Origin: Bacteroidota bacterium
Lineage (GTDB): Bacteria > Bacteroidota > Bacteroidia > B-17B0 > Aurantibacillaceae
Length of the DNA stretch: 64,000 bases
Direction of reading: 5' to 3'
Assembly: GCA_021156365.1 (NCBI GenBank)
Contig: JAJNDK010000004.1
Coordinates: 255,137-319,136, forward strand
Part shown: positions 27,275 through 39,274 of the stretch, piece by piece
Numbering within the stretch: the stretch's first letter is position 1
How the letters are laid out: each line of letters begins with the position of its first letter
Program-made: the position numbers and the translations under genes
Notes under the pieces: model-generated
Databases searched by the model: none
Told to the model about the DNA's origin: nothing
Seen by the model: only the letters and a program-made list of their open reading frames with translations

Positions 27275-30200
27275 ATGAACAAAAATCTATCCTCCTTGTT
27301 ATTGCTGGCTGGTGTCGCTGCAATGACCTATGCACTCTTTTCCAAAAGTGACCCAGCGTCCGAGACTGACCTGGTGAGCGAAACACCGGATACAACAATG
27401 GTATTGCCTGCCGATCCTTCTACTTTTCCGGCTTTACTGGTCCACCGGATTGAAGGAGACAGTACTTCTGTGCCACTGCACATGAGCGGCCTGAAGCTGG
27501 ATGTAAAAGTAGTAGGGAATATTGCGCTTAGCACGATGGAGATGACTTTTTACAATGATCTCGATCGCGTGCTGGAAGGGGACCTGTGTTTTCCCTTAGG
27601 TGAGGGGCAGACCGTATCCGGATTCGGGATGGAAACGGATGGAGTAATGCGGGATGGCGTAGTGGTGGAAAAGGCAAAAGCACGGCAGGTTTTTGAATCT
27701 GTTGTGAGAAGAAGGATCGACCCGGGATTACTGGAATGGACGAAAGGGAATAATTTCAAAACACGTGTGTACCCTATTCCTGCACATGGAAGCAAACGTG
27801 TTCGCATCAGCTTCGAGCAGGAGCTGATCTCTACGGTCAGTGGTTTTGTTTACCTGCAACCGATGCTGTTTAAAGACAAGATCGAGAAATTCGATCTTCG
27901 CGCAGAGGTGATTCAGCAATCGGTAAAACCAAGGTCTTCGAAAAATGCAGTGTCCATAGAATTCGACGAGTGGAACAACTCTTGGGTGGCAGAAAAGCGC
28001 CTGGAGAATTTCACAGGTAATAAAGCCCTTTCATTTGAGATACCAAAGGCAGAAGATATGCAACGTATTTTTGTAGAGAACACCGGCTATTTTTATCTCA
28101 CACTTGATCCGGTTAAATACATCCGCCCTAAAAAACTGCCTTCTTCTGTGTGCCTGCTTTGGGATGTTTCGGGATCAGGGCTGAACCGCGACATTCAAAA
28201 GGAGGAAGCCTTGCTGGACGTTTATTTCAAGAAGCTACAAAATGCAGGTATTCATCTGGTGACCTTTAGTAATACTATTCATACGGAATCGGATTTTATT
28301 CTCAGCAAAGGAAACTGGCAGGCACTGAAGGAAGAGCTGGACAGACAGGTGTTTGATGGAGGCACACAGTTAGGTGCGATCGATCTGAAAAAATACAAAG
28401 CTGAGGAGATTCTCCTGTGCTCGGACGGGCTCAGCACTTTCGGCGATGCAGACATGAAGCTCTCAAAAATCCCGGTTAATGCTATTTGTTCCTCGCAGTC
28501 GGCCGATCATTCCATGTTGAAATACATTACGCAGGCAACGGGCGGACATTATATAAATGCGCTTTCTACTACAAACGAAGAAGCGATGAAGCTCATCGGT
28601 ACAGAATCGTATCGGTTCTTAGGAGCAAGCCCGGGTGTGGGAAGGGTTTCCCAATTGTATCCTTCCATTCCTACGGATTTCAACAGAACAATTGCTGTAG
28701 CAGGAAAGATAGAAAGCTCTTCAGCGGAAGTCACATTGAATTTCGGTTTCGGGGATGAGATCGTCTATTCGAAAAAAGTGCTTGTACATGCTGCAACGCA
28801 GATCAAAGACGGTTTTGTGAAAAAGCTGTGGGCGCAAAAAAAGATCAGCGAACTCGATATGCGCTACGAAAAAAACAAGAAGGAAATAACTGCATTGGGA
28901 AAAGAATGCTCGATCGTTACACGCAACACTTCTTTGCTGGTGCTCGACAGGCTGGAAGACTATATTCAGCATCATGTAGTTCCTCCACAAAAAGAATGGC
29001 AGGAACAATATTATACAGCTATAAATGAACAGGTCGAAAATGTTGCTGCCGACAAGAACGCTCATCTCGAAGAAGTGGTGCAGGCCTTTCAGCAACGGAT
29101 CGATTGGTGGAACACCAGCTTTAAGTACAGGAATTATAAGAAGGAGCAGAAACCAAAGGTTGCACCAACGGTGCGTTTTTCTAATCCTGTTGTAACAGAT
29201 GATGCAACGGAGACTGAAACGGCAGCTTCTGACACATTCCGGGCTTTCAGAGGAAATGGGTTTGCGACTGCAGACTCCGTTTCATTTACACCAGGACGTG
29301 TCAATGAAACTTCGAATAATCTTGTTAACGCCGAAACCCAGAACTCACCCGTTACCGGCTGGTCATACAATGATCCGCAGAACGGAGGATTTGACCATGT
29401 TCCTTACGAAGAACAGGAAACAACTGCCGGAACAGCTTACACCTGGAGCTTTAATGGAACATCGGACGGGACAGTCGCGAATCAGTCGGGAGCATATGCC
29501 ACAACGTTAAATACCACCAGTTATAATGTAACAGTAACGGATGCCAATGGAGCTACAATGGCTACAAGGTCGGCCAACTTTCGCATGGAAGCCGGAGTAG
29601 TATCGAAGATCAACCTGAAGGCCTGGGATCCGAAAACACCTTATATGGAAAAGCTCAAAAAAGCAAAAGAACAAAACAGGTATGCGACTTATCTGGATTT
29701 ACGGAAAACCTATAAGGATCAGCCCGCTTTCTTTCTCGATGCCGGAAACTACTTTATCGAAAAGGGAGATAAGACAAATGGTCTTCGGGTACTTTCCAAT
29801 CTTGCCGAGTTTAATACAGAAGATCATAAGGCACTTCGTGTGTTGGCACATAAGCTGCAACAGGCGGGTTTCACCGATCTTGCTATTGCAATGTTTAAAG
29901 AAGTATTGAAGATCCGGGAAGAAGAACCACAGTCTTATCGCGACCTTGGTCTTGCACTGGCTGATAAAAAAGAGTACCAGGGCGCAGTGGATATGCTCTG
30001 CAAAGTCGCGAATAAACGATGGGACAGCCGTTTTCCCGGGATCGAAGTACTTGCAGCCAATGAGATCAATTCCCTGATCGCCAGCAGCGGAGCGAAAGTA
30101 AAATTAGATTCTCTCGATAAACGCCTGATCAAACCAATGCCGGTGGATGTGCGGATCGTGATCAACTGGGAGTCGGACAATTGTGATATGGATCTATGGG

Positions 30201-30511
30201 TGACGGATCCTGTAGGAGAGCAATGCATGTACAACCACAATGAAACACAGAACGGCGGCAGGATCTCGCAGGATTTTACAGGAGGTTACGGTCCGGAGGA
30301 ATTCATTGTAAAAAAAGCGCTGAACGGAAAATACCTCGTTCAGGTCAATTATTACGGCACGCGCGAGCAAACACTTTTAGGACCAACAACAGTTCAGGCG
30401 GAGCTATATACCAATTACGGAAAACCGAATCAGAAAAAACAGGAAGTCACACTCCGGCTGAAAGAGGATAAGGAAGTAATTGATATCGGCGCATTGGCTT
30501 TTGGGAAATAG
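27275..30511 (+). CDS. VIT-vWA-TPR-DUF2135 large protein (YfaP-like C-terminus)
   Basis: transmembrane/signal segment, VIT domain (LKLDVKVVGNIALSTMEMTF...RVYPIPAHGSKRVRISFEQ), vWA (LLWDVSGSG), TPR-like helices, C-terminal DUF2135-like beta domain (VRIVINWESDNCDMDLWVTDP...YGPEEF). Confidence 0.7.
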   Translation: MNKNLSSLLLLAGVAAMTYALFSKSDPASETDLVSETPDTTMVLPADPSTFPALLVHRIEGDSTSVPLHMSGLKLDVKVVGNIALSTMEMTFYNDLDRVLEGDLCFPLGEGQTVSGFGMETDGVMRDGVVVEKAKARQVFESVVRRRIDPGLLEWTKGNNFKTRVYPIPAHGSKRVRISFEQELISTVSGFVYLQPMLFKDKIEKFDLRAEVIQQSVKPRSSKNAVSIEFDEWNNSWVAEKRLENFTGNKALSFEIPKAEDMQRIFVENTGYFYLTLDPVKYIRPKKLPSSVCLLWDVSGSGLNRDIQKEEALLDVYFKKLQNAGIHLVTFSNTIHTESDFILSKGNWQALKEELDRQVFDGGTQLGAIDLKKYKAEEILLCSDGLSTFGDADMKLSKIPVNAICSSQSADHSMLKYITQATGGHYINALSTTNEEAMKLIGTESYRFLGASPGVGRVSQLYPSIPTDFNRTIAVAGKIESSSAEVTLNFGFGDEIVYSKKVLVHAATQIKDGFVKKLWAQKKISELDMRYEKNKKEITALGKECSIVTRNTSLLVLDRLEDYIQHHVVPPQKEWQEQYYTAINEQVENVAADKNAHLEEVVQAFQQRIDWWNTSFKYRNYKKEQKPKVAPTVRFSNPVVTDDATETETAASDTFRAFRGNGFATADSVSFTPGRVNETSNNLVNAETQNSPVTGWSYNDPQNGGFDHVPYEEQETTAGTAYTWSFNGTSDGTVANQSGAYATTLNTTSYNVTVTDANGATMATRSANFRMEAGVVSKINLKAWDPKTPYMEKLKKAKEQNRYATYLDLRKTYKDQPAFFLDAGNYFIEKGDKTNGLRVLSNLAEFNTEDHKALRVLAHKLQQAGFTDLAIAMFKEVLKIREEEPQSYRDLGLALADKKEYQGAVDMLCKVANKRWDSRFPGIEVLAANEINSLIASSGAKVKLDSLDKRLIKPMPVDVRIVINWESDNCDMDLWVTDPVGEQCMYNHNETQNGGRISQDFTGGYGPEEFIVKKALNGKYLVQVNYYGTREQTLLGPTTVQAELYTNYGKPNQKKQEVTLRLKEDKEVIDIGALAFGK

Positions 30512-30519
30512 TCCGGGGC

Positions 30520-31065
30520 TTATTTCCGGACCGTATCCCATTTCCCAAAATGCTGCAGGAAGATCTTCGCAATATTCCGTGCATCATCGATCCCGCGGTG
30601 GTGTGTGCCCTCAAGTTCGATCTTTTCCATCCACAGTGCGCCTGCCATTCCGGTATGTTTTTTCAGGCCTTTGATCCCGGTGTACTGATGTTTGAGACTG
30701 ATATGCTTTTCGAGCCAGGAGGTTTCCAGTTCGTGGAGCTCGCAATCGTTCTTCAGCTGCACGCGGTCATAATGGCCCCAGCTGCAGAGCAGGTAATCTT
30801 CTGTACCAATCCAGTTTCTGAATTTTTTCAGCACTTCCGGGAATGTTTCCGCAGCATCTACCTGCTCCTGGGTGATAGTTGTGAGTTTGATGCAGAAAGG
30901 CGAAAGCTGTGTATCCAGTTTGGGTTTCACAAATGCACAGAATTCGCTTTCAATAATTTTGTTTTCGTTGATGCAAAGCGCACCGATCTCAATGATCTCG
31001 TTTTTCTTTGATGGATCCCTCGGCTCCCAACAGGAGGCTTCGAGATCGAGTATAATGTATTTCAT
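30520..31065 (-). CDS. DEDDh 3'-5' exonuclease (ERI-1/KapD-like)
   Basis: Exo I DLEAS, Exo II, Exo III H-x4-D (HHRGIDDARN); 181 aa. Confidence 0.75.
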   Translation of the reverse strand: MKYIILDLEASCWEPRDPSKKNEIIEIGALCINENKIIESEFCAFVKPKLDTQLSPFCIKLTTITQEQVDAAETFPEVLKKFRNWIGTEDYLLCSWGHYDRVQLKNDCELHELETSWLEKHISLKHQYTGIKGLKKHTGMAGALWMEKIELEGTHHRGIDDARNIAKIFLQHFGKWDTVRK

Positions 31066-31080
31066 AATTTTCTTTTTTTG

Positions 31081-31398
31081 TTATAATTCTTTTTCTTCTT
31101 GTTTGTATTCACAGCGAATAGCTTTGCCATAAATGATCTTCGTCCAGCCATTCTCGAATCCATGATTGTTGGCGATCAGGAAGCCTTTATTCGTGTCTGT
31201 TTGAACGATCTTATGTGCATCTATGAAACGTCCTCTCACCTTGCAAAATACAATATCACCAATTTCATAGTGTTCAGCCTTTGTAAAGGTAAGCAGCGAA
31301 CCGCTTTTTAAAATGGGTAACATAGAATTGCCGAAGCATTTCATGGAACCTGTTCCTGTATTTTCTAATTCTTCTTTTAATCGTAAATATTTATTCAT
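31081..31398 (-). CDS. stand-alone S24-family (LexA/UmuD-like) peptidase domain protein
   Basis: GNSMLP Ser motif plus downstream Lys; 105 aa. Confidence 0.5.
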   Translation of the reverse strand: MNKYLRLKEELENTGTGSMKCFGNSMLPILKSGSLLTFTKAEHYEIGDIVFCKVRGRFIDAHKIVQTDTNKGFLIANNHGFENGWTKIIYGKAIRCEYKQEEKEL

Positions 31399-31453
31399 TT
31401 GTTTTTTTAATTGTAAAAAGCCCTGCTTCTATGGAAGCAGGGTCGGGTTTTAG

Positions 31454-32548
31454 TTATGGGCCGAACAGCGTTCGCAGCTGCGATGAAACGGGGCTCTCAC
31501 CGGAGATCGTAATACCATTGATCTTCGCTGTGATCTTTTCCACAAACTCCATCTCTTTGAGCTTGAACAGCATTGCATTGTCCTCCATCAGCTTCGCAGT
31601 GTTCAGAAGGCTACGTGTAGCTGCTGTTTCCTCACGACGCATGATGGTGTTGGCCTGTGCTTTTTTCTCCGCAATCAGTACCTGGTTCAGGATCTCTTTC
31701 ATATCACCTGGCAGGATGATGTCGCGGATACCACCACCGCGCAGTGCTACACCCAGTTCTTTGATACGTTCGGCAGCAGCTTCCAGGATGAAAGCGGAAA
31801 TGCTTTCTTTTTTATCCAGCAGTTCATCCAGGCTCAGCGCACCCACATACTCGCGCAGGACCAGCTGCATGATCACATAGAGTTGTTTTTCGTACTCTTT
31901 GTTATTCACCACTGCTTTCACAATGTCTTCAATGTGATACTGCACATAGAAATTGATACGCAGGCCCGCTTTGTCTTTGCTCAGGATCTCCTGGCCCGCG
32001 ATCTCCAGCTGCATCGTACGCATATCGGCACGCGTGATCACAATAGATGTGTTATTTTTCCAGAAGTAATACGAACCCGGTTCCATGATCTTCACGTATT
32101 TACCATCCATGTACATCACGGCTTTTTCACACGGCTCTACTGTATAAAAACGGATGTACTGGATCAGCTCTTTACGCATGTACAGGGATGGATCGATATC
32201 CGCACCGATCTCCGTTTTATTCAGATCCACGATTTTGAATTCCTGTATGATCAGACCTTTCCAGTATATATAAGTGCCGGGACCCAGCACTTCCATGAAC
32301 AGACCTTTTTCGTAACGCAGGGCAATCTCGTTATTTTTCACTTCAACGATATCGATAGCAGCTATGAAAGCCGGATCACGCATCAGGATATTGATGTTGC
32401 GGGGCGCAATGAATGGTTTCGCCATATCATATTCCACCAGCTCATCGAAGTAGGAAATACGATGTGCGCCTTCGGTCAGCACTGTTTTGTATTCGCCATC
32501 GGAAAATACCATGCCGATCTTACCGGCCTTTATTTTTATCTTTTTCAT
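31454..32548 (-). CDS. SPFH/band-7 (stomatin/flotillin-like) domain protein
   Basis: C-terminal SPFH core (LSLDELLDKKESIS...IKELGVALRGGGIRDIILPGDMKEILNQVLIAEKKAQA); start taken at MKKIKIKAGK. Confidence 0.65.
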   Translation of the reverse strand: MKKIKIKAGKIGMVFSDGEYKTVLTEGAHRISYFDELVEYDMAKPFIAPRNINILMRDPAFIAAIDIVEVKNNEIALRYEKGLFMEVLGPGTYIYWKGLIIQEFKIVDLNKTEIGADIDPSLYMRKELIQYIRFYTVEPCEKAVMYMDGKYVKIMEPGSYYFWKNNTSIVITRADMRTMQLEIAGQEILSKDKAGLRINFYVQYHIEDIVKAVVNNKEYEKQLYVIMQLVLREYVGALSLDELLDKKESISAFILEAAAERIKELGVALRGGGIRDIILPGDMKEILNQVLIAEKKAQANTIMRREETAATRSLLNTAKLMEDNAMLFKLKEMEFVEKITAKINGITISGESPVSSQLRTLFGP

Positions 32549-32872
32549 ATGTTTGTTTTTTCTTGTTTTTAAATTTAAAAGAAGGAATTGTTTCATTCAC
32601 CCGTGAATAGCGGAATCCTGTTTCAGTAAGCCGCTTTCGAATGGTTTTTATACAATTACAAGAAAGTCCATTGTATAAAAAGCAAAAGCTGTTGGCATAA
32701 CGGTATCCACATTCATCTGGCTTTCCACCGGTTGTTCCGTACCGCTTCCGGCGCGGAGCTGAATCAAACCATTCCTTTCTTTTTGAGCGCCATTTTTATA
32801 GAAGTCGGCATCTTCTCTTTTGAGGATCTGGAATCCTTTGCGTTTACCAGTTTCGCCACCCTGATTGCAACA

Positions 32873-32996
32873 TCAGGGGCAGGATTCGAACCTGCATGTT
32901 TGGTGTCACACTCTAACCACTGAGTTACCTGCATTGCTGCAGAACCGGATTCGAACCGGTGACCTTGACGTCATTCGTTCGTTAATCAACCGCAGC
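32873..32996 (-). pseudogene. two tandem degenerate tRNA-like fragments (D-arm plus T-arm, no anticodon arm)
   Basis: GTAACTCAGTGGTTAGAGT D-arm and GCAGGTTCGAATCCTGC / ACCGGTTCGAATCCGGT T-arms on the minus strand with incomplete acceptor stems. Confidence 0.3.
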
Positions 32997-33277: not shown

Positions 33278-33284
33278 ATCACTG

Positions 33285-33355
33285 TTCTCTTAACCGGAAT
33301 CGAACCAATATCTTATCCTTAGAAGGGATGTGTTTTTCCTTTAAACTATAAGAGA
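33285..33355 (-). tRNA. tRNA-Arg(UCU), AT-rich non-canonical
   Basis: hand fold: acceptor TCTCTTA/TAAGAGA, D-stem GTTT/AAAC, anticodon loop CTTCTAA, T-arm ATTGG-TTCGATT-CCGGT. Confidence 0.55.
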
Positions 33356-33358
33356 ATG

Positions 33359-33441
33359 TTCCTCCGAACCCCGATAGTTATCGGGGCGAACTTTTGTTTC
33401 GCGGTTAAAAGCCGCGAGCTCTGCCACTGAGCTACGAAGGA
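33359..33441 (-). ncRNA. tRNA-Lys(UUU)-like gene with T-arm replaced by palindromic hairpin CCCCGATAACTATCGGGG
   Basis: acceptor TCCTTCG/CGGAGGA, D-arm GCTC-AGTGGCA-GAGC, anticodon arm CGCGG-CTTTTAA-CCGCG; the T-arm position holds GTTCG[CCCCGATAACTATCGGGG]TTCGG. Confidence 0.45.
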
Positions 33442-33455
33442 ATTTATATTTTTAC

Positions 33456-33529
33456 TGGTAGCTCCTGATTGAATCGAACAATCACTTTATGGATGTAAGC
33501 CATACATTCTGCCTTTAAATTAAGGAGCT
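33456..33529 (-). tRNA. tRNA-Val(UAC), CCA encoded
   Basis: acceptor AGCTCCT/AGGAGCT, anticodon arm TATGG-CTTACAT-CCATA, T-arm GATTG-TTCGATT-CAATC, 3' ACCA encoded. Confidence 0.6.
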
Positions 33530-33535
33530 GTTTTG

Positions 33536-33607
33536 TTGCCTTAGAAAGAATCGAACCTTCACCCTCCGGTTTATGAGACCGGTGCTCCACCCTTGAGCTA
33601 TAAGGCA
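33536..33607 (-). tRNA. tRNA-Met/Ile2(CAU)
   Basis: acceptor TGCCTTA/TAAGGCA, D-arm GCTC-AAGGGTG-GAGC, anticodon arm CCGGT-CTCATAA-ACCGG, T-arm GAAGG-TTCGATT-CTTTC. Confidence 0.65.
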
Positions 33608-33613
33608 TTTTTG

Positions 33614-33685
33614 TTGTCTTAACAGGATTTGAACCTGTAGCCTCCGACGTATCAGGTCGTTGCTCCACCTGTTGAGCTATAAGAC
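33614..33685 (-). tRNA. tRNA-Ile(GAU)
   Basis: acceptor TGTCTTA/TAAGACA, D-arm GCTC..GAGC, anticodon loop CTGATAC, T-arm ACAGG-TTCAAAT-CCTGT. Confidence 0.6.
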
Positions 33686-33691
33686 AATGTG

Positions 33692-33762
33692 AGCAGAATA
33701 TCGGATTCGAACCGCGTCCCCTGGGTGGAAACCAGGTGCTTTACCACTAAGCTATATTCTGC
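33692..33762 (-). tRNA. tRNA-Gly(UCC)
   Basis: acceptor GCAGAAT/ATTCTGC (extendable to 9 bp), anticodon arm CCTGG-TTTCCAC-CCAGG, T-loop TTCGAAT with a weak 3-bp T-stem. Confidence 0.5.
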
Positions 33763-33906
33763 ATAGTATTCCCACGGTCCCGATAGCTATCGCGAGAACC
33801 CGTGTCTGGTCATTGAAAGTGACCGATCCTAACCATTAGAAGATGGGAACATAGTTCCTCTTCTTCATTCCTTTTGTTCTTCATTTTATTAATTATTAAT
33901 CGTTTG

Positions 33907-33975
33907 CACATTCACAGGGAATCGAACCTTGTCCTGCAGTTTTGGAGGCTGCGTGGCTACCATAGCCTTGAATGT
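33907..33975 (-). ncRNA. tRNA-like gene with 9-nt anticodon loop
   Basis: acceptor ACATTCA/TGAATGT, D-like hairpin GGCTA-TGG-TAGCC, stem GCAG-CCTCCAAAA-CTGC, T-arm ACAAGG-TTCGATT-CCCTGT. Confidence 0.35.
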
Positions 33976-33981
33976 AGTGGC

Positions 33982-34018
33982 GGTTCATAAGGGTCCCGAT
34001 AGCTGTCGGGACGGACCC
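33982..34018. repeat. extended palindromic element GGGTCCCGATAGCTGTCGGGACGGACCC
   Basis: member of the CCCGATAGCTATCGGG palindrome family (copies near 33369, 33779, 34265, 34974, 35372, 41201). Confidence 0.6.
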
Positions 34019-34232
34019 TTGTCTTCCGAGCGACAGTCGGAGATAATGGCCTTTATACCAATGAACCTGGTGCTTCGATAGATGCCGATGTGATGTACAA
34101 GGCTTTTGCAAACTTCGCCTTCATTGTCATCGGGCCGCGGACTTTAACCGCTCCTTGTACACTGCGCTTTGACAAGAGCACAGCTACATTTTTCGCATCT
34201 ATCCGGCGCGCCTTTGCATGGCTTACCGTTTG

Positions 34233-34318
34233 CGGACAAAGCAGGATTCGAACCTACTGCCTGATGCCCCGATAGCTATCGGGGCAGTCAACTGCTCATC
34301 CATATGAGCTTTTTGTCC
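34233..34318 (-). ncRNA. tRNA-like gene with anticodon arm replaced by a 22-bp perfect palindrome TGCCCCGATAGCTATCGGGGCA
   Basis: acceptor GGACAAA/TTTGTCC, D-arm GCTC-ATATGGAT-GAGC, T-arm GTAGG-TTCGAAT-CCTGC; the region between D- and T-arms is the palindromic hairpin with short flanks and no anticodon stem. Confidence 0.45.
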
Positions 34319-34328
34319 AATTTTTTTG

Positions 34329-34401
34329 AGCCAGTAGCAAGCCTCGAACTTGCGACCTTCTGCTTACAAGGCAGTTGCTCTTCCCGCTGAGCTATACCGG
34401 C
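34329..34401 (-). tRNA. tRNA-Thr(UGU), GC-rich canonical-looking
   Basis: acceptor GCCGGTA/TACTGGC, D-arm GCTC-AGCGGGAA-GAGC, anticodon arm ACTGC-CTTGTAA-GCAGA, T-arm GCAAG-TTCGAGG-CTTGC. Confidence 0.65.
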
Positions 34402-34462: not shown

Positions 34463-34605
34463 TTGACCCGGATGGATTCGAACCATCGCAACCCGTGTTA
34501 ATCACTGACGAAAAATCTTAATCGATTTTTATCAGAATTAACCTTGATAAAACTTGTTTCGTCAAGGTTACAAGCACGGTACTCTACTTGCTGAGCTACA
34601 GATCA
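34463..34605 (-). ncRNA. tRNA-Thr(UGU)-like gene with ~70-nt structured insertion in the anticodon loop
   Basis: acceptor TGATCTG/CGGGTCA (2 GU pairs), D-arm GCTC-AGCAAGTA-GAGT, 5' anticodon stem CCGTG plus loop CTTGTAA, then insertion 34497-34566 with internal inverted repeats (CCTTGA..TCAAGG; AAAAATC..GATTTTT), then 3' stem CACGG, T-arm GATGG-TTCGAAT-CCATC. Confidence 0.4.
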
Positions 34606-34626
34606 ATAATTCAAGGAATACAATTT

Positions 34627-34772
34627 TTTAAAAGGGCAATGAACGAACATAGTTTTGGGTTTTCGTTAACAGCGAAGTAACTATGTTCTACGGCACCTTA
34701 TTTTAAAAGGCAATAAACGGGTATAGTTTTATTTTGCGTGACAGGCGAAGTAACTATACTCTACGGCACTTT
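34627..34772. repeat. two tandem ~73-nt paralogous hairpin units (candidate small structured RNAs)
   Basis: unit 1 has inverted repeat GAACATAGTT...AACTATGTTC; unit 2 has GTATAGTT...AACTATAC; the units share aaaggcaat..catagtttt..cgaagtaactat..ctacggcac. Confidence 0.45.
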
Positions 34773-34774
34773 TG

Positions 34775-34847
34775 TCGATCTACCTGGATTCGAACCAGGG
34801 ACTTCAGTCTTAAAAGGACTGAGCTCTGCCAACTGAGCTATAGACCG
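34775..34847 (-). tRNA. tRNA-Lys(UUU)
   Basis: acceptor CGGTCTA/TAGATCG, D-arm GCTC-AGTTGGC-AGAGC, anticodon arm CAGTC-CTTTTAA-GACTG, T-arm CCTGG-TTCGAAT-CCAGG. Confidence 0.65.
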
Positions 34848-34849
34848 AA

Positions 34850-35400
34850 ATTTGAATGGGTAAAAATCGAAAGAGAACGTTTTGGCGCTCTATCCGCTGA
34901 GCTATAAGGCAATGAAATGAATATTGGTTGCCTCAATGGGATTCGAACCCATGACCTCCCGATTAAGAGTCGATCCCGATAGCTATCGGGACTTTTCTAC
35001 GACACCATTCAATGGTTTTGATGAGGAAAAAAACGTTCAGTGCTTTTGTTAACTGAGCTACTCTTCATTGCTGAAAGATTGGACTTGAACCAATGGCCTT
35101 CCCGACATTTATCGTCGGGGCGCTCTACCGAAGTATCACTTTACTACGTCACTCATCAATGTTTTTAAACAGGTAAAAAGCTGTAAAAGTTTTTTGTCTT
35201 GTGCTCTAACCAACTGAGCTATCTGCCTTTCGACAAAACCGGACTCGAACCGGTGCCCCCAAGGTTAACGATGTATCTCTTACATACGACACTGTTTAAT
35301 TTTGAAGAAAGAGCGATGGTTGCGGGAGCGTGTCTTAGAGGATTCGAACCTCTGACCTTTCGGCCTCACCATCCCGATAGCTATCGGGAGAAGTATCTCT
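34850..35400 (-). pseudogene. run of degenerate or rearranged tRNA-like fragments with palindrome insertions
   Basis: 5' half TGCCTTATAGCTCAGCGGATAGAGC (34850-34913); 3' half ..ATGGGTTCGAATCCCATTGAGGCAACCA with palindrome (34925-35012); Leu(UAA)-like anticodon hairpin CCCGAC-GATAAAT-GTCGGG plus T-arm ATTGG-TTCAAGT-CCAAT (~35060-35110); 5' half GGCAGATAGCTCAGTTGGTTAGAGCAC (~35200); T-arm ACCGG-TTCGAGT-CCGGT (~35235); element 35320-35400 with palindrome, GAAA-tetraloop hairpin and T-arm AGAGG-TTCGAAT-CCTCT. None folds into a complete cloverleaf by hand. Confidence 0.3.
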
Positions 35401-35447
35401 CCGCGAACGGCATCTTTCAATAGGTTTGTCAGGAGCAATTGCGATCC

Positions 35448-35520
35448 GCAGTGATGGAGACCTGCCGGCGGGGATTTGCACCCCGTTCCGTTTCTGCACC
35501 GGAACCCTCTCTCCTATGGA
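35448..35520 (-). ncRNA. D-armless tRNA-like hairpin RNA with TGCAAAT T-loop (candidate Y-RNA-like)
   Basis: GGAGAGA..TCTCC closing stem, stem GTTCCG/CGGAAC, T-like arm GGGG-TGCAAAT-CCCC; located ~290 bp downstream of the rsr stop. Confidence 0.35.
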
Positions 35521-35589
35521 TGGTATGCTCACCGCGATCTACGGCAACCTGACAATGTGTTTAATTATATGCTGTCAAAAGCGAAATGC

Positions 35590-35660
35590 GATGAGGGCAG
35601 GGGATACGCAATGAGGATTTGCACCTCTTCCTGATTGTAATGTCAGGACCCTTCCCCTTC
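35590..35660 (-). ncRNA. D-armless tRNA-like RNA with TGCAAAT T-loop (candidate Y-RNA-like)
   Basis: closing stem GGGGAAG/..TATCCCC, anticodon-like arm TCCTGA-CATTACAA-TCAGGA, T-like arm GAGG-TGCAAAT-CCTC; paralog of 35448-35520; ~150 bp downstream of rsr. Confidence 0.35.
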
Positions 35661-35744
35661 AATGGCGCGAAGTAGCCCTTTTCTGCGGCATTCTGGCAGC
35701 AATGTTTTTTTGTCTTTGAATAATATGTCAATGAACGAATTTCT

Positions 35745-35803: not shown

Positions 35804-37321
35804 TTATAATTCAATTTGTTTGATTTTTTCTACTGCACCCACACCATTTTCGATAGCGTGCAATACATCAAACACTTTGTCCGACCAACCTGCGATCAGG
35901 TGTACATCGTTTTTCTGAACGTTCAGCGGCGTGTTTCCATGGCCCGCAAGATCGAACAGGTACAATTTTGCTTTTGGCGCGATCGCTTTGTAGGCATTCC
36001 AGGATTTCTCCAGGGAAGAACCCGCATGACGGCTATCCCACAGCTGGCAGTCGGTGAACAGCATCACTTTATCCATCACCACGTTTCGTGCGATCAGGTC
36101 ATCGATCACTTTGTAACCATTGGTCGAGTAACCCACTTCACCTTCACGTTTGTAGTATTGGTCCACATTGGCCAGTACTCCGCGGTTTGGCAGGTTGATC
36201 ACTTTCCAGGTATCACCGAACATACCTGATACCACACGCTTACATTTCGACTGCATCAGCATACCCAGCATCAGGCCGATGTCGTAAAACATCACTTTGC
36301 TTTTAGCCGATACGGCTTGCTGCATCGAACCGGATACGTCACATGCTACCAGCACGGCAGTGTTCTCGTCGAAACCTTTCAGGTTCTTAACGCTTGCCAC
36401 CACTGCATCTTCCAGCGCATTCAATACCATGGTCACGAACTCCGAGTTCATCACTTTGATCTCACGGTGCGCTGCGAGGAAACGGAATGGCAACTGTTTC
36501 GAGTTTGCCACCGCAGTCTCATTCGACAGGTAAGCGCATACTTTTTTCACATGCGAAGCAGATACTTTTGCTTCCAGTATGTTACGCAGGTTACGCATCA
36601 AAGCCATATAACCAACTTTACCGCTGTCGATCAGTTCTTCCCATTTAGCACGGAAAGCTGCAGCCTTTTCTTTATCGTTGGCATATTTTGTCTGACCCAA
36701 TGCCGACAGCTCAGTTTCCCAGGTGTATGGAACAGCCAGTTCGTTCGCAGCTATTTTATTGAACACCACTTGCTGGTTCTCGTCTTTCGCTTTTGGATGC
36801 ACTATGAACAGGGCGTCACGCAATTTCACTTCCGCATCCCGATTGTATTTTGCGAACTGGTATTCATCGAAACGGTTGAAAGATACTGCCAGCCCTTTCT
36901 GGATCTGCTTCGACAGCTTATTCAGCTTTTTAGTACCGTTACGTTTGTTGGCCAGCTGGTAATATGCCAGGAGCTCGGTGATCTCATCGGCACGTTTTAC
37001 CACGCCCGATACGGTTTTACCTACCACCGCATCACCGGAGTTCAGTTTGGCCAGTTCTACCGCCAGTACCATTGGGATCGAACGCATATACATTTCGTTA
37101 CGTGCATACACTGCCAGTTTCGCTACGTATTGTGCATCGTTTTTCAACATCAGCTCACGGATACGTGTCAAACGGGTATCTGCTTTCTCATAGAAGCTGT
37201 CGTTTAGGCCCGCAGTTACTACCGCTGAGTATAGCTCCAGCTCAGGAGTCAGTTGGAATGCTTTTGCACCTTCATAGTTTGTAACTACGTTTTCTGTTTT
37301 TTTGAAGATGTTGAATTTCAT
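35804..37321 (-). CDS. rsr: Ro60-like (TROVE domain plus vWA/MIDAS) ribonucleoprotein Rsr
   Basis: 505 aa; N-terminal TROVE-like helical repeats (NYEGAKAFQLTPELELYSAVVTAGL...MRSIPMVLAVELA); C-terminal vWA MIDAS (VLVACDVSGSMQ). Confidence 0.8.
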   Translation of the reverse strand: MKFNIFKKTENVVTNYEGAKAFQLTPELELYSAVVTAGLNDSFYEKADTRLTRIRELMLKNDAQYVAKLAVYARNEMYMRSIPMVLAVELAKLNSGDAVVGKTVSGVVKRADEITELLAYYQLANKRNGTKKLNKLSKQIQKGLAVSFNRFDEYQFAKYNRDAEVKLRDALFIVHPKAKDENQQVVFNKIAANELAVPYTWETELSALGQTKYANDKEKAAAFRAKWEELIDSGKVGYMALMRNLRNILEAKVSASHVKKVCAYLSNETAVANSKQLPFRFLAAHREIKVMNSEFVTMVLNALEDAVVASVKNLKGFDENTAVLVACDVSGSMQQAVSAKSKVMFYDIGLMLGMLMQSKCKRVVSGMFGDTWKVINLPNRGVLANVDQYYKREGEVGYSTNGYKVIDDLIARNVVMDKVMLFTDCQLWDSRHAGSSLEKSWNAYKAIAPKAKLYLFDLAGHGNTPLNVQKNDVHLIAGWSDKVFDVLHAIENGVGAVEKIKQIEL

Positions 37322-37574: not shown

Positions 37575-38588
37575 ATGCCCATTAATAAATTAGCCCTTGT
37601 TCGCTACAAAACCATCGACAATTGTTTACAGAACCGTTTTCGCAAATGGACGCTGGACGACCTGATGGAGGCGGTTTCCGAAGCTTTGTATGAATACGAA
37701 GGTATCACCAAAGGCATCAGCCGGAGAACCATACAGCTTGATCTGCAAAACATGCGCAGTGAGAAACTTGGTTACAATGCACCGATCGTAGTAACGGATA
37801 AAAAGTTCTACAGTTACGAAGACAAGCAGTACAGCATCACCAGTATTCCTTTAACAGAACAGGATATGGGCACGTTGAACGAAGTGTTGGGTGTTCTGAA
37901 ACAATTCAAAGGCTTTGGTTATTTCCAGGAACTTACCGGGATGGTAACCAAGCTCGAGGACAAGCTTTATAAGCAACAGCATAAAGGCAAATCATATATC
38001 GATTTTGAAAAAAACGAATTGCTCAAAGGTTTAGAGTTTATTGATCCTTTGCACAAAGCGATCATCAATCGTAAAACGATCGAGATCACTTATCAATCCT
38101 TTAAAGCGAATCAATCACAGCAGATCGTTTTTTATCCTTATCTACTGAAAGAATACCGCAATCGCTGGTTCCTCTTCGGTATGAACAGAAAAGGCAGCTC
38201 AGCGATGATCCTTGCACTGGACCGCATTGAGAAGTTCAAAGAGCTCTCCGAAAAATATGTGAAAGCACCTTTCGATGCGCACATGTTTTTCGATGATGTG
38301 ATCGGTGTAAGTAAAGCGCCCGGACAAAAACCATCAACCATTGTGATGAAGATCGACAAAGAAAATGCACCTTATGTGATCACCAAGCCGATCCATCCTT
38401 CGCAAAAGATCCTGAAGGAAGAACCCGACGGGATCTTATTCAGCATTGATGTTGTCTGGAACTTTGAGCTGGAACGTGAATTGCTTGGCTTCGGTGAGAA
38501 GCTGCACATACTTTCTCCGCGTAGGCTTGCCGGAAAAATACAATCGCGTTTGAAACACACATTACAAAAATATCAAAGAACGGAATAA
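37575..38588 (+). CDS. HTH-WYL-WCX domain transcriptional regulator
   Basis: N-terminal wHTH (LALVRYKTIDNCLQ), WYL signature (IVFYPYLLKEYRNRWFLFGMN), C-terminal WCX-like region. Confidence 0.8.
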   Translation: MPINKLALVRYKTIDNCLQNRFRKWTLDDLMEAVSEALYEYEGITKGISRRTIQLDLQNMRSEKLGYNAPIVVTDKKFYSYEDKQYSITSIPLTEQDMGTLNEVLGVLKQFKGFGYFQELTGMVTKLEDKLYKQQHKGKSYIDFEKNELLKGLEFIDPLHKAIINRKTIEITYQSFKANQSQQIVFYPYLLKEYRNRWFLFGMNRKGSSAMILALDRIEKFKELSEKYVKAPFDAHMFFDDVIGVSKAPGQKPSTIVMKIDKENAPYVITKPIHPSQKILKEEPDGILFSIDVVWNFELERELLGFGEKLHILSPRRLAGKIQSRLKHTLQKYQRTE

Positions 38589-38594
38589 TACGTG

Positions 38595-38670
38595 TCGGGA
38601 AAGCAGGATTTGAACCTGCGAACTCTCGCTTCCAGGGCGAGCGGGGACGGCCTGACTCCCCCATTTCCCG
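38595..38670 (-). tRNA. tRNA-Pro(UGG)-like, C at position 33
   Basis: acceptor CGGGAAA/TTTCCCG (C1:G72 as in bacterial tRNA-Pro), D-arm GGGG-AGTCAGGCCGT-CCCC (11-nt loop), anticodon arm CTCGC-CCTGGAA-GCGAG, T-arm GCAGG-TTCAAAT-CCTGC. Confidence 0.5.
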
Positions 38671-38681
38671 TTTTATCTTTG

Positions 38682-38755
38682 TCGATCAATGAGGACTCGA
38701 ACCTCAAACCTTCTGATTCGTAATCAGGTGCTCTATCCAATTGAGCTATTGATCG
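38682..38755 (-). tRNA. tRNA-Arg(ACG)
   Basis: acceptor CGATCAA/TTGATCG all Watson-Crick, D-arm GCTC..GAGC, anticodon loop TTACGAA, T-arm TGAGG-TTCGAGT-CCTCA. Confidence 0.7.
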
Positions 38756-38756
38756 G

Positions 38757-38832
38757 TGGTGGACAAGGGTGGGATCGAACCACCTTCTCCGGATTTTCAG
38801 TCCGGCGCATAGACCAACTCTGCTACTTGTCC
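38757..38832 (-). tRNA. tRNA-Phe(GAA), CCA encoded
   Basis: acceptor GGACAAG/CTTGTCC, anticodon arm CCGGA-CTGAAAA-TCCGG, T-arm GGTGG-TTCGATC-CCACC, ACCA 3' end; only 1 nt from the preceding gene. Confidence 0.6.
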
Positions 38833-39267: not shown

Positions 39268-39274
39268 ATTTTTG

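What the first reader, a model, noticed from the sequence alone, without database searches (positions are those of the whole stretch)
33285..33762. Six head-to-tail non-canonical tRNA genes with 3-14 nt spacers, AT-rich acceptor stems and encoded CCA
Arg(UCU), Lys(UUU)-like, Val(UAC)+CCA, Met(CAU), Ile(GAU) and Gly(UCC) are separated by only 3, 14, 6, 6 and 6 nt. Acceptor stems such as TGTCTTA and TCTCTTA are unlike typical GC-rich bacterial tRNAs but are reminiscent of phage (T4/T5-like) tRNA clusters. A second array at 38595-39807 is similarly packed, with 1 nt between the Arg(ACG) and Phe(GAA)+CCA genes. Such arrays in phages supply tRNAs resistant to host anticodon nucleases; here one sits on a chromosome next to repair enzymes.
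Basis: partly seen in the sequence, partly recalled or inferred. Interest (0 to 1): 0.7.

Follow-up and report, generated by a model that had tools for sequence, protein, structure and literature searches.

The report
Spare tRNA array in RNA-repair island
The six tightly packed genes belong to an extra, dispensable set of about two dozen tRNA genes that a Bacteroidota bacterium keeps, mixed with tRNA-mimicking Y RNAs, inside a gene island for repairing damaged RNA; one of the six, and five neighbours, have been broken by small insertions, five of them short palindromes.

Summary
Five of the six genes (Arg-UCU, Val-UAC, Met, Ile-GAU, Gly-UCC) are high-scoring tRNA genes on the minus strand, 3-14 nt apart. 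The 'Lys(UUU)-like' gene fails both tRNA detectors. It is a tRNA-like gene whose T arm is replaced by a variant of the palindrome TCCCGATAGCTATCGGGA.

The cluster is one end of a two-part array of 17 intact and 6 disrupted tRNA genes. The array flanks a Ro60 (rsr) gene and a divergent WYL regulator, and is interleaved with about 8 Y-RNA-like tRNA mimics. Around it lie RlaP, PNKP, two RNA ligases, a Thg1-like enzyme, an RNase T-like exonuclease, SPFH and VIT-vWA proteins, and a type XIII retron.

The source is a chromosome-sized (1.43 Mb) Bacteroidota metagenome contig, with no phage genes nearby. The closest relative (Ro60 90% identical) has the same layout with 22 intact tRNAs and no palindrome. 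Most other Ro60 loci have no array. tRNA-Asn, Asp, Glu and Tyr are disrupted here, so housekeeping copies must exist elsewhere.

I read it as an accessory 'L-array' of spare tRNAs coupled to Ro60/Y-RNA surveillance and RNA repair, partly decayed in this genome. The kind is known; the context is new. Why palindromes sit in the tRNA loops is unexplained.

The parts
33284..33355 (-). tRNA-Arg(UCU); acceptor stem UCUCUUA, U1-A72
   Evidence: ARAGORN. Rfam 61 bits. The L004 orthologue differs from it by changes on both sides of an acceptor pair.
33359..33441 (-). 'Lys(UUU)-like' pseudo-tRNA. The acceptor stem, D arm and anticodon arm are intact. The T arm is replaced by the palindrome variant CCCCGATAACTATCGGGG (33369-33386).
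   Evidence: Not called by ARAGORN. Rfam 24.8 bits, below the gathering score of 29. Sequence and fold. No counterpart in L083 or L004.
33456..33529 (-). tRNA-Val(UAC) with encoded CCA
33535..33607 (-). tRNA-Met(CAU); elongator-like or Ile2-like, without initiator features
   Evidence: It has U1-A72 and no GGG/CCC in the anticodon stem (read from the sequence).
33613..33686 (-). tRNA-Ile(GAU); acceptor stem UGUCUUA
33691..33762 (-). tRNA-Gly(UCC)
   Evidence: Close to identical to the L083 orthologue by eye in the alignment.
33767..33850 (-). Disrupted tRNA-Glu(UUC). After GGGTTC the T loop is replaced by TCGCGATAGCTATCGGGA.
   Evidence: Alignment with the intact Glu gene of L083, which ARAGORN calls; an intact Glu gene is also called in L004. 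Not detected by ARAGORN or Rfam in the window.
33906..33975 (-). tRNA-Trp(CCA); 70 nt, with a short D arm
   Evidence: ARAGORN. No RF00005 hit was listed; a tRNA-Sec-clan match overlaps it at 21.3 bits. Conserved in L083 and L004, with changes on both sides of pairs visible in the alignments.
33978..34067 (-). Disrupted tRNA-Asp(GUC) with a GCCA 3' end. The T loop is replaced by TCCG + TCCCGACAGCTATCGGGA.
   Evidence: Alignments with the intact Asp genes of L004 and L083.
34072..34200 (-). Conserved structured RNA of about 130 nt, of unknown family, embedded in the array
   Evidence: Five-sequence alignment; 12 of 40 predicted pairs show compensatory changes. No Rfam match.
34233..34318 (-). 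Disrupted tRNA-Asn. The anticodon loop is replaced by TGCCCCGATAGCTATCGGGGCA, a 22-nt perfect palindrome.
   Evidence: Rfam 37 bits, with no anticodon. Alignment with the intact Asn(GUU) gene of L004. Perfect palindrome confirmed.
34328..34401 (-). tRNA-Thr(UGU)
34463..34605 (-). tRNA-Lys(CUU) orthologue carrying a unique insertion of about 70 nt in the anticodon loop
   Evidence: Rfam 42 bits over 143 nt. Alignment with Lys(CUU) of L083. The insert has no other copy in the sequences held.
34774..34847 (-). tRNA-Lys(UUU), the first tRNA after the Y-RNA block
   Evidence: The same position is occupied in L083 and L004; Lys(UUU) is also the only, or among the first, tRNAs called downstream of Ro60 in L012, L085 and L086.
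34620..35711 (-). About eight Y-RNA-like units, each starting with the motif GNCGUAGA...(A/U)UACUUCG. Three are circularly permuted tRNA mimics of the YrlA type (T arm, acceptor-like hairpin, D arm) at 35308-35170, about 35155-35020 and about 35010-34855. Units at 35372-35389 and 34974-34991 carry the palindrome.
   Evidence: Rfam YrlA hits below threshold, at 38.4 and 31.5 bits. In a 12-sequence alignment, 21 of 30 pairs show compensatory changes. The first unit is conserved in 16 loci.
32871..32981 (-). YrlA-like permuted tRNA mimic at the distal end of the array
   Evidence: Rfam YrlA 35.9 bits. Conserved in L083.
35804..37321 (-). Ro60/Rsr (TROVE domain) gene, immediately upstream of the Y-RNA and tRNA block
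   Evidence: Pfam TROVE, E = 9e-29. 5455 homologues, with the named ones from Bacteroidota.
37575..38588 (+). WYL-WCX transcription regulator, divergent from rsr and lying between the two sub-arrays
   Evidence: Pfam. The position is conserved in L083, L085 and L086.
38594..39807 (-). Sub-array B. In transcription order: Gln(UUG), Leu(CAG), Ser(UGA), Leu(UAG), [Tyr*], Pro(UGG), His(GUG), Phe(GAA)+CCA, Arg(ACG), Pro(UGG). It also contains conserved non-tRNA elements, for example at 39440-39545.
39173..39267 (-). Disrupted tRNA-Tyr(GUA). After GGTTC the T loop is replaced by a different perfect palindrome, TCACGCTATAGCGTGA (39185-39200).
   Evidence: Alignment with the intact Tyr gene of L083. 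The palindrome is unique to this genome among the sequences held.
39959..41913 (-). DraRnl-type RNA ligase (39959-41056) and Thg1-like 3'-5' polymerase (41098-41913). The Thg1-like gene carries an in-frame copy of the palindrome at 41201-41218.
   Evidence: Pfam and NCBIfam TIGR02306. The protein reads DPDSYRD, a net gain of 4 residues relative to the L083 and L086 homologues.
24010..27147 (-). RlaP nucleotidyltransferase, PNKP kinase-phosphatase and T4 Rnl1-like RNA ligase
   Evidence: Pfam. NCBIfam.
27218..32596 (.). VIT-vWA protein (+), RNase T-like exonuclease (-), a 105-aa protein (-) and an SPFH/Band-7 protein (-), lying between the repair genes and the array
   Evidence: Pfam. The same genes are present in L083, L085 and L086.

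Best explanation
The six genes are the promoter-distal end of an accessory tRNA gene array, of the 'L-array' or tRNA-array-unit type. The array is built into a Ro60 (Rsr)/Y-RNA RNA-surveillance and RNA-repair island on a Bacteroidota chromosome.

Layout on the minus strand: DraRnl-type RNA ligase and Thg1-like enzyme; sub-array B (9 intact tRNAs plus 1 disrupted); the divergent WYL regulator; rsr; about 8 Y-RNA-like tRNA mimics; sub-array A (8 intact tRNAs plus 5 disrupted); one more YrlA-like RNA; then SPFH, the exonuclease, VIT-vWA and the Rnl1-PNKP-RlaP genes.

Shown:
- The identity of the genes.
- Their conservation and covariation in relatives.
- Their patchy distribution among Ro60 loci.
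- That they are supernumerary.

Inferred mechanism: when the cell's tRNA pool is damaged or translation stalls, the WYL regulator switches the island on. Damage could come from anticodon or other tRNA nucleases of competitors, from phage-triggered defences such as the neighbouring retron, or from antibiotics. The array then supplies a near-minimal replacement set of tRNAs, one U34 or G34 tRNA per codon box and originally 18 amino acids. PNKP and the ligases reseal cleaved tRNAs. RlaP and the Thg1-like enzyme rebuild 3' and 5' ends. Ro60 with its Y RNAs triages misfolded or broken RNAs.

In this particular genome the array is partly decayed. An 18-nt perfect palindrome (TCCCGATAGCTATCGGGA), which is a dispersed repeat of Bacteroidota, or a related palindrome, has replaced 6-7 nt in the T loop of Asp, Glu, Tyr and the 'Lys-like' gene. 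It has also replaced the anticodon loop of Asn.
For: - tRNA calls.
- Island gene content.
- Source is a 1.43-Mb Bacteroidota metagenome contig.
- The same architecture, with 22 intact tRNAs and no palindrome, in the closest relative L083. Partial synteny in L085, L086 and L004.
- Arrays of 9 or more tRNAs lie next to Ro60 in only 9 of 80 genome loci (L004, L009, L011, L013, L047, L064, L070, L074, L081). They are absent from close relatives L003, L005, L007 and L008.
- tRNA stems are kept through changes on both sides, for example Val with 12 changed pairs and 0 broken, and Arg-ACG with 8 and 1.
- The Y-RNA unit has 21 of 30 covarying pairs. YrlA-model hits.
- Disruption of Asn, Asp, Glu and Tyr shown by alignment with intact orthologues.
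- Literature: L-arrays are supernumerary, spread by horizontal transfer, occur in Bacteroidetes, are linked to rtcB and RNA-processing genes, and are induced by translational stress (PMC8421152). The TrcR regulon couples the trn operon with rtcB and a slipin (PMC10272220). YrlA RNAs lie within 4 kb of Ro60 on the same strand and mimic tRNA (PMC4201824). RlaP adds 1-2 nt to damaged RNA 3' ends and restores tRNA aminoacylation (PMC12776372).
Against: - There are no expression data. Co-transcription and WYL control are inferred only from gene order, strand and short spacers. The promoter scan was uninformative.
- Six of 23 array genes are inactivated here. That fits weak or absent selection on at least part of the array in this lineage.
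- The whole-genome tRNA census could not be made, so the supernumerary status rests on inference.
- Nothing shows that these tRNAs are aminoacylated, or that they resist nucleases.
Confidence: 0.7

Rival explanations
1. The array is a decaying relic of a phage or other mobile element that once carried Ro60 and tRNAs. It is kept only by hitch-hiking and has no present role for the host.
For: - Six of 23 genes are disrupted.
- The distribution is patchy.
- Ro60 embedded in arrays of 11-42 tRNAs is common on predicted viral contigs.
- A retron defence system lies adjacent, as is typical of variable islands.
Against: - There are no phage structural, integrase or replication genes in 64 kb.
- There is no close phage match.
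- The architecture is syntenic across several chromosomal contigs whose Ro60 proteins are 80-90% identical. The tRNAs there are intact and their stems covary.
- The closest relative has all 22 genes intact.
Confidence: 0.15
2. The array RNAs act mainly outside translation. On this view the tRNAs and tRNA-like RNAs, including the palindrome-bearing ones, serve as ligands, decoys or sensors for Ro60, for the repair enzymes or for tRNA-targeting nucleases. That would make the array an extension of the Y-RNA (tRNA-mimic) repertoire.
For: - True tRNAs are interleaved with 8-9 Y-RNA-like tRNA mimics in one same-strand block downstream of rsr.
- tRNA-Lys(UUU) follows the Y RNAs even in a locus where it is the only tRNA called (L012); in L085 and L086 it is one of only one or two tRNAs downstream of Ro60.
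- The disrupted genes keep their acceptor, D and anticodon or T domains and fold stably.
- Every insertion in the RNA genes lies in a loop or at a hairpin tip, not in a tRNA stem.
Against: - The intact genes have normal anticodon loops. They form a near-complete minimal decoding set, which is the signature of a translational role.
- The palindrome is absent from the closest relatives, so it is not a conserved functional module.
- Two copies have already acquired stem mismatches.
Confidence: 0.1
3. These are simply the organism's ordinary housekeeping tRNA genes, which happen to be clustered.
For: Rfam scores are normal (54-69 bits). There are few duplicate isoacceptors inside the window.
Against: - tRNA-Asn, Asp, Glu and Tyr are all inactivated here, and no intact gene for those amino acids lies in the array. 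This would be lethal if they were the only copies.
- Most related Ro60 loci, including those in complete Flavobacterium genomes, have no array at this locus.
- Many genes have unusual first pairs (U1-A72 in Arg, Met and Ile; A1-U72 in Val; C1-G72 in Lys and Arg).
Confidence: 0.03

Closest known systems
[quoted passage not shown] PCC 7120 (Santamaria-Gomez et al. 2021, PMC8421152; TrcR regulon, PMC10272220)
   Same: - Many same-strand tRNA genes with very short spacers, and not periodic.
- Supernumerary, with a patchy distribution that suggests horizontal transfer.
- Contains pseudogenes.
- Neighbourhood enriched in RNA-repair and RNA-processing genes. In Anabaena these are rtcB and a slipin/SPFH protein; L083 and L085 have RtcB.
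   Different: - Here the array is split in two around rsr and a WYL regulator, not an RHH-type regulator like TrcR.
- It is interleaved with Y-RNA-like tRNA mimics and other conserved structured RNAs.
- No HNH homing endonuclease was seen.
- The host phylum is Bacteroidota.
- Induction by stress is untested.
The rsr-yrlBA-rtcBA RNA-repair operon of Salmonella, and YrlA-type bacterial Y RNAs (Chen et al. 2014, PMC4201824; Hughes et al. 2020, PMC7790460)
   Same: - A Ro60 gene is followed on the same strand, within 4 kb, by tRNA-like Y RNAs (T arm, acceptor-like hairpin, D arm, closing stem).
- The locus is linked to RNA ligase genes.
   Different: - About 8-9 Y-like units instead of 1-4 (four is the maximum as I recall it from the literature, not checked).
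- The 5' motif is GNCGUAGA rather than GNCGAA(N)G.
- Rfam YrlA scores (31-38 bits) are below the gathering score of 69.
- The ligases are Rnl1-like and DraRnl-type rather than RtcB.
- The regulator is a WYL protein rather than RtcR/sigma-54.
- Real tRNA genes are part of the block.
Phage tRNA clusters, including Ro60-encoding mycobacteriophages and jumbo phages (Chen 2014; Iyer et al. 2021, PMC7824862), and the T4 Pnkp/Rnl1 answer to the PrrC anticodon nuclease
   Same: - Densely packed tRNAs forming a near-minimal decoding set.
- Co-occurrence with Ro60, PNKP, an Rnl1-type ligase, RlaP and Thg1.
- Predicted viral contigs show Ro60 inside arrays of 11-42 tRNAs.
   Different: - The setting is chromosomal, with no phage genes.
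- Sequence similarity to phage clusters does not go beyond generic tRNA similarity.
- The presumed beneficiary is the cell rather than a virus.
tRNA array units of Acidithiobacillus, Firmicutes and Mycobacterium (Tran et al. 2016, PMC4758250; Morgado and Vicente 2018, PMC5966550), some of which enclose the GOLLD lncRNA
   Same: High tRNA gene density, carriage by mobile or accessory DNA, and structured non-tRNA RNAs embedded in the array.
   Different: - The window has 17 detector-called tRNAs, below the formal limit of 20. L083 has 22.
- The embedded RNAs here are Y-RNA-like units and an unknown element of about 130 nt, not GOLLD.

Membership tests
Bacterial tRNA (Rfam RF00005), for the six genes of the finding | A cloverleaf scoring at or above the Rfam gathering score, and called by a tRNA finder with an anticodon | tested here: met
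   Five of the six meet it, at 56-67 bits against 29 and with ARAGORN calls. The sixth, 'Lys-like', does NOT meet it: 24.8 bits and no ARAGORN call.
L-array (Santamaria-Gomez et al. 2021) | A long run of same-strand tRNA genes close enough to be co-transcribed, and not periodic | tested here: met
   Sub-array A has 13 genes in 1.56 kb. Sub-array B has 10 genes in 1.2 kb. All are on the minus strand, with spacers from 1 nt to about 130 nt and no repeated order.
L-array (Santamaria-Gomez et al. 2021) | Supernumerary to the housekeeping set | tested here: inconclusive
The status is inferred from the disruption of Asn, Asp, Glu and Tyr and from the absence of the array at most related Ro60 loci.
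L-array (Santamaria-Gomez et al. 2021) | Sporadic phylogenetic distribution, indicating horizontal transfer | tested here: met
   Arrays of 9 or more tRNAs occur in 9 of 80 Ro60 loci, scattered over Chryseobacterium, Flavobacterium and uncultured lineages. They are absent from some of the closest relatives.
L-array (Santamaria-Gomez et al. 2021) | Silent under standard conditions and induced by translational stress | not testable with these tools
   This needs expression data.
tRNA array unit (Tran et al. 2016) | At least 20 tRNA genes at 2 or more per kb | tested here: not met
   The window has 17 detector-called tRNAs in 6.5 kb, or 2.6 per kb. Density is met and number is not, unless the 6 disrupted genes are counted. 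The relative L083 meets both, with 22 tRNAs in 6.3 kb.
YrlA Y RNA (Rfam RF02553), for the neighbouring tRNA mimics | A score at or above the Rfam gathering score of 69 bits | tested here: not met
   The best hits score 38.4, 35.9 and 31.5 bits.
YrlA Y RNA (Chen et al. 2014 criteria) | Within 4 kb of Ro60 on the same strand; a T-like and a D-like arm separated by an acceptor-like hairpin; a closing stem formed by the two ends | tested here: met
   Positions are 35308-35170, about 35155-35020 and about 35010-34855, which is 0.5-0.95 kb downstream of rsr. Covariation was found in all helices, in 21 of 30 pairs.
YrlA Y RNA (Chen et al. 2014 criteria) | The motif GNCGAA(N0-1)G near the 5' end, presumed to contact Ro60; Ro60 binding itself | tested here: inconclusive
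   A related but different motif, GNCGUAG(A), is invariant at the 5' end of the units. Binding cannot be tested here.
Phage (T4/T5-like) tRNA cluster | Located in a phage or prophage genome | tested here: not met
   No phage genes in the window. The contig is 1.43 Mb. There is no close phage match.
Retron type XIII (the neighbour, not the finding itself) | A clade XIII reverse transcriptase with SWIM and WGR/HEAT accessory genes | tested here: met
   PADLOC gives RT_XIII at E = 8e-184, SWIM_XIII at 5e-230 and WGR_XIII at 2e-280. The msr/msd RNA was not looked for.

The most novel reading that the evidence does not exclude
The palindromes in the tRNA loops may not be random decay. They could be the trace of a loop-directed process that has not been described.

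What supports this reading:
- The same 18-nt perfect palindrome has replaced 6-7 nt in three T loops, one anticodon loop, two Y-RNA hairpin tips and one ORF, all inside this one island.
- It is absent from the other roughly 50 kb of the window.
- It is absent from the 90%-identical relative.
- It occurs independently at the same T-loop site (after GGTTC) in a tRNA-Pro-like gene of Flavobacterium panici.
- It occurs in the D or variable loops of tRNA-like sequences in unrelated metagenome contigs.
- A different palindrome occupies the same T-loop site in tRNA-Tyr.

Two possibilities follow:
(a) A minimal mobile palindrome that targets single-stranded loops of tRNA-shaped DNA or RNA. One conceivable route is RNA-level ligation by the island's ligases, followed by reverse transcription by the adjacent retron reverse transcriptase.
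(b) A selected conversion of spare tRNAs into loop-capped RNAs that resist nucleases and are inert in translation, serving as decoys or Ro60 ligands.
Probability: 0.12. Interest if true: 0.75.

Novelty: new variant of a known kind. Interest (0 to 1): 0.5.

Why it matters
Accessory tRNA arrays are known, but their function is understood in essentially one cyanobacterium. Bacterial Ro60/Y-RNA systems are understood in two or three species.

This locus and its relatives physically fuse the two. A Ro60 gene, a battery of tRNA-mimicking Y RNAs and a near-complete spare tRNA set lie in one block, next to almost every known class of RNA-end repair enzyme.

This makes a concrete prediction: in Bacteroidota, replacement of tRNAs, repair of tRNAs and Ro60-based quality control form one stress or defence response. 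Related arrays occur in cultivable strains, such as Chryseobacterium defluvii, C. formosense and Flavobacterium cheonanense, so the prediction can be tested by experiment.

The palindrome that repeatedly sits in tRNA loops is an unexplained by-product and deserves its own survey.

Tried and rejected
1. First idea: the recurring hairpin CCCGAUAGCUAUCGGG is the Ro60-binding module of the tRNA-like RNAs, because it resembles GGUCCGA and GNCGAA. Rejected as a conserved module. It is absent from the orthologous Y RNAs and tRNAs of L083, L085, L086 and L004. It also occurs in ordinary intergenic repeats of Flavobacterium and in many unrelated metagenome contigs.

2. Idea: the palindrome always lands at the tip of a pre-existing hairpin. 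Rejected. Only 4 of 86 metagenome copies have 3 or more further complementary flanking bases, and the mean is 2.3 of 8 against 2.0 expected.

3. Idea: hairpins immediately after GGTTC-type T-loop starts are generally enriched in Ro60 loci. Rejected, with 122 hits against 124 for control motifs. That scan did uncover the independent Flavobacterium panici case.

4. Search for a gene family linked to the palindrome, such as a transposase or RAYT. None was found; the most widespread family is in 4 of 80 loci and looks like an ordinary outer-membrane receptor gene (my reading of the sequence).

5. Phage origin by DNA similarity. Only generic tRNA matches were found.

6. The sigma-70 promoter and terminator scan gave no signal above shuffles. 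This is expected for Bacteroidota.

7. My positional cloverleaf parser mis-registered about half of the tRNAs. Only the well-parsed ones are cited.

8. The hairpin at about 35120, which I first counted as a palindrome copy, is an ordinary variable-arm hairpin that covaries with L083.

9. The literature search for the palindrome sequence found nothing relevant. Burroughs and Aravind 2016 and Sim et al. 2020 are not in the library, so statements about them rest on my own recollection.
Full report
**1. The observation**

ARAGORN finds 17 tRNA genes in the window. All are on the minus strand, in two groups at 33284-34847 and 38594-39807. Rfam's tRNA model confirms 15 of them at 54-69 bits (gathering score 29). 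It adds three weaker tRNA-like hits at 34463-34605, 34233-34318 and 32871-32934.

The spacers are as reported: 3 and 14 nt on either side of the 'Lys-like' gene, and 4-6 nt elsewhere. Val and, in the second array, Phe carry an encoded CCA. One base separates the CCA of Phe from Arg(ACG).

The 'Lys(UUU)-like' gene (33359-33441) is not a detectable tRNA. ARAGORN does not call it, and it scores 24.8 bits in Rfam. It has an acceptor stem, a D arm and the anticodon arm CGCGG-CUUUUAA-CCGCG. After GUUCG, however, the T arm is replaced by the hairpin CCCCGAUAACUAUCGGGG.

Several genes have unusual first pairs: U1-A72 in Arg, Met and Ile, and A1-U72 in Val.

**2. The setting**

The window is part of a 1.43-Mb metagenome contig. 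An identical Ro60 protein is recorded in NCBI as 'MAG: Bacteroidetes bacterium'. G+C is even at about 0.44. The remaining genes are ordinary chromosomal ones: histidine kinases, helicases, a desaturase and an alpha-2-macroglobulin. No phage genes are present.

The tRNA genes lie inside a dense RNA-repair island:
- RlaP (24010-25155)
- PNKP (25125-26060)
- T4 Rnl1-like ligase (26023-27147)
- VIT-vWA protein (27218-30511)
- RNase T-like exonuclease (30520-31065)
- SPFH/Band-7 protein (31454-32596)
- Ro60/TROVE (35804-37321)
- a divergent WYL-WCX regulator (37575-38588)
- DraRnl-type RNA ligase (39959-41056)
- Thg1-like 3'-5' polymerase (41098-41913)

Directly beyond lies a type XIII retron made of a reverse transcriptase, a SWIM protein and a WGR/HEAT protein.

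**3. Y RNAs and tRNAs form one block**

About eight units lie between the rsr stop codon and the first tRNA. Each begins with GNCGUAGA...(A/U)UACUUCG. Three of these units, plus one at the far end of the array, are circularly permuted tRNA mimics: a T arm, an acceptor-like hairpin and a D arm, closed by a stem formed from the two ends.

Rfam's YrlA model hits them below threshold, at 38, 36 and 31.5 bits. Chen et al. warn that adjacent tRNAs can imitate YrlA, and one such false hit was seen at the Ile/Met junction. For the unit at 35308-35170, however, a 12-genome alignment shows compensatory changes in 21 of 30 pairs across all helices. The unit right after rsr is conserved in 16 loci.

So the tRNA array is physically continuous with a battery of Ro60-associated tRNA mimics. 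Other conserved structured RNAs of unknown family are embedded in the array too. One is an element of about 130 nt at 34072-34200, with 12 covarying pairs in 5 sequences. Another is an element of about 100 nt at 39440-39545.

**4. Comparative evidence**

I fetched 80 Ro60-centred loci from GTDB species genomes. Arrays of 9 or more tRNAs lie next to Ro60 in only nine of them. These include Chryseobacterium defluvii with 17, C. formosense with 16 and Flavobacterium cheonanense with 11. Most loci, including close relatives, have none.

The closest relative (L083, Ro60 90% identical) has the same architecture: Thg1, ligase, 11 tRNAs, WYL, Ro60, Y RNAs, 11 tRNAs, a YrlA-like RNA and SPFH. All 22 of its tRNAs are intact. 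L085 and L086 share parts of this layout. L085 also has the retron, RtcB and two RlaP genes.

Where my parsing was reliable, stems differ between orthologues by changes on both sides and are almost never broken. Val has 12 changed pairs and 0 broken. Arg-ACG has 8 and 1. Phe has 7 and 1. This points to selection for a working cloverleaf.

The combined anticodon set is a near-minimal decoding set, with one U34 or G34 tRNA per codon box.

Predicted viral contigs also carry Ro60 homologues inside arrays of 11-42 tRNAs. The window's arrays, however, have no specific similarity to any phage record or to those contigs.

**5. Why some genes look non-canonical**

Alignment with L083 and L004 shows that an 18-nt perfect palindrome, TCCCGATAGCTATCGGGA or a near variant, has replaced 6-7 nt at the following sites in this genome:
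- the anticodon loop of tRNA-Asn (34233-34318)
- the T loops of tRNA-Asp (33978-34067) and tRNA-Glu (33767-33850)
- the T arm of the 'Lys-like' gene, where the same variant sits but no orthologue is available for comparison
- two Y-RNA units
- the Thg1-like ORF, in frame, with a net gain of 4 residues

These rest.

tRNA-Tyr (39173-39267) has a different perfect palindrome at the same T-loop position. The Lys(CUU) orthologue (34463-34605) has a unique insertion of about 70 nt in its anticodon loop. No copy of the 18-nt palindrome is present in L083, L085 or L086.

The array here therefore consists of 17 intact and 6 disrupted genes. No intact gene for Asn, Asp, Glu or Tyr lies in the array, so a living cell must have other genes for them. 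That is an inference; the whole-genome census could not be run.

**6. The palindrome itself**

- It is a dispersed repeat. There are 13 exact 14-nt cores in Flavobacterium Ro60 loci, where about 0.006 would be expected by chance (the expectation is my own estimate for about 1.7 Mb).
- 88% of copies lie outside long open frames, against 37% for random positions.
- No linked gene family was found.
- About 8 of 88 copies lie in tRNA or tRNA-like loops.
- It is not found in the searchable literature.
- In Flavobacterium panici it sits directly after GGTTC in the T loop of a tRNA-Pro-like gene, inside another tRNA array near Ro60.

Two observations remain unexplained. All seven copies in this 64-kb window lie within the RNA island. 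Those in the RNA genes lie in loops or hairpin tips and not in tRNA stems.

**7. Interpretation**

The best-supported reading is an accessory tRNA L-array coupled to Ro60/Y-RNA surveillance and RNA repair. The nearest studied analogue is the Anabaena trn operon. That operon is silent until translation is impaired. It is co-regulated with rtcB and a slipin, and it improves survival (PMC8421152, PMC10272220). L-arrays have been reported in the phylum Bacteroidetes.

RlaP has recently been shown to add 1-2 nt to damaged RNA 3' ends and to restore tRNA charging after repair (PMC12776372). Thg1-like proteins repair tRNA 5' ends, and PNKP with Rnl1 is the T4 answer to the PrrC anticodon nuclease; both points are established knowledge and are also summarised in PMC7824862.

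The proposed mechanism is as follows. tRNA damage or translational stress is sensed. The WYL regulator switches the island on. Spare tRNAs replace the damaged pool, while the ligases and end-repair enzymes mend broken tRNAs and Ro60 with its Y RNAs triages defective RNA. This is inferred from gene content and order, not shown.

Three rivals are weighed above: a functionless relic of a mobile element, a mainly non-translational decoy or ligand role, and plain housekeeping genes.

**8. Verdict**

The finding is real but narrower than what is actually there. It is a new example, in a new context fused with Y RNAs, of a known kind of element. It is not a phage cluster. One of the six genes is a pseudo-tRNA. 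The palindromic loop replacements are the most unusual aspect and remain unexplained.

Noticed in passing
window 33369-33386, 33778-33795, 33994-34011, 34265-34286, 34974-34991, 35372-35389, 41201-41218; also L021-L044, L033 21318-21335, L088-L167: An 18-nt perfect palindrome, TCCCGATAGCTATCGGGA, is a dispersed and mostly intergenic repeat of Bacteroidota-like genomes. At least 120 metagenome stretches carry it. In this window all seven copies lie in the RNA island: in tRNA or Y-RNA loops, and in frame in the Thg1-like ORF. The 90%-identical relative has none.
   Followed up: partly
window 39185-39200: A second, unique perfect palindrome, TCACGCTATAGCGTGA, replaces the T loop of tRNA-Tyr directly after GGTTC. 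This is the same site at which the 18-nt palindrome sits in Glu here and in a Pro-like gene of Flavobacterium panici.
   Followed up: partly
L098 2784, L139 1005, L150 322, L151 5187, L163 4015: In unrelated metagenome contigs the palindrome sits in the D loop of a partial 5' copy of a tRNA (acceptor strand plus D arm). That partial copy lies 50-80 nt upstream of an intact tRNA that begins with the same sequence (Ala, Phe, Leu, Met). In L098 it again replaces about 7 nt.
   Followed up: partly
window 42785-49256 (-): A type XIII retron (RT_XIII, SWIM_XIII, WGR/HEAT_XIII) lies directly beside the RNA-repair island. The same trio lies beside the island in L085. The roughly 870-nt gap between the reverse transcriptase and the Thg1-like gene (41914-42784) could hold the retron's non-coding RNA, but I did not examine it.
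   Followed up: partly
window 34072-34200 (-): A structured RNA of about 130 nt, of unknown family, lies between the disrupted Asn and Asp genes. It is conserved in L083, L004, L085 and L086 at 75-83% identity by BLAST. Twelve of its pairs covary, and it has no Rfam match. One of its hairpins resembles a T arm (GCGGUUAAAGUCCGC).
   Followed up: partly
window 39440-39545 (-): A conserved element of about 100 nt lies between Leu(CAG) and Ser in sub-array B. It appears to be closed by GGAGAAUU/AAUUCUCC (read by eye). It is 87% identical in L083 and 80% in L086. It has no Rfam match.
   Followed up: no
window 34620-35711 (-); L004 5630-6350; L014 11740-12520: Bacteroidota Y-RNA-like units share the 5' motif GNCGUAGA...(A/U)UACUUCG, a variant of the published GNCGAA(N)G. 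They come in several body types: YrlA-like, a type with a GGUGCAAAUCC loop, and short hairpin types. Up to about 8 occur per locus, and all fall below the Rfam YrlA threshold.
   Followed up: partly
window 34463-34605 (-): The orthologue of tRNA-Lys(CUU) carries a unique insertion of about 70 nt in its anticodon loop. The insertion forms two hairpins and has no other copy in the window or in any fetched locus.
   Followed up: partly
window 34774-34847; L083 12457, L004 6191, L085 12784, L086 12792, L012 12406: tRNA-Lys(UUU), the classical target of the PrrC anticodon nuclease, lies downstream of Ro60 after the Y RNAs in several loci. In L012 it is the only tRNA called, and in L086 it is the only one downstream of Ro60.
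   Followed up: no
window 42053-42080: A 28-nt perfect palindrome, AAAGGTCCCGAAAATTTTCGGGACCTTT, looks like a bidirectional terminator. It shares the TCCCGA/TCGGGA arms of the 18-nt palindrome.
   Followed up: no
window 8804-9841 (-) and 9780-12263 (-): A protein with an Ntox23 toxin domain lies immediately downstream of, and overlaps, an HrpB-type RNA helicase gene.
   Followed up: no
L208-L249 (IMG/VR contigs): Many predicted viral contigs, some of 175-420 kb, carry a Ro60 homologue embedded in arrays of 25-42 tRNA genes.
   Followed up: partly
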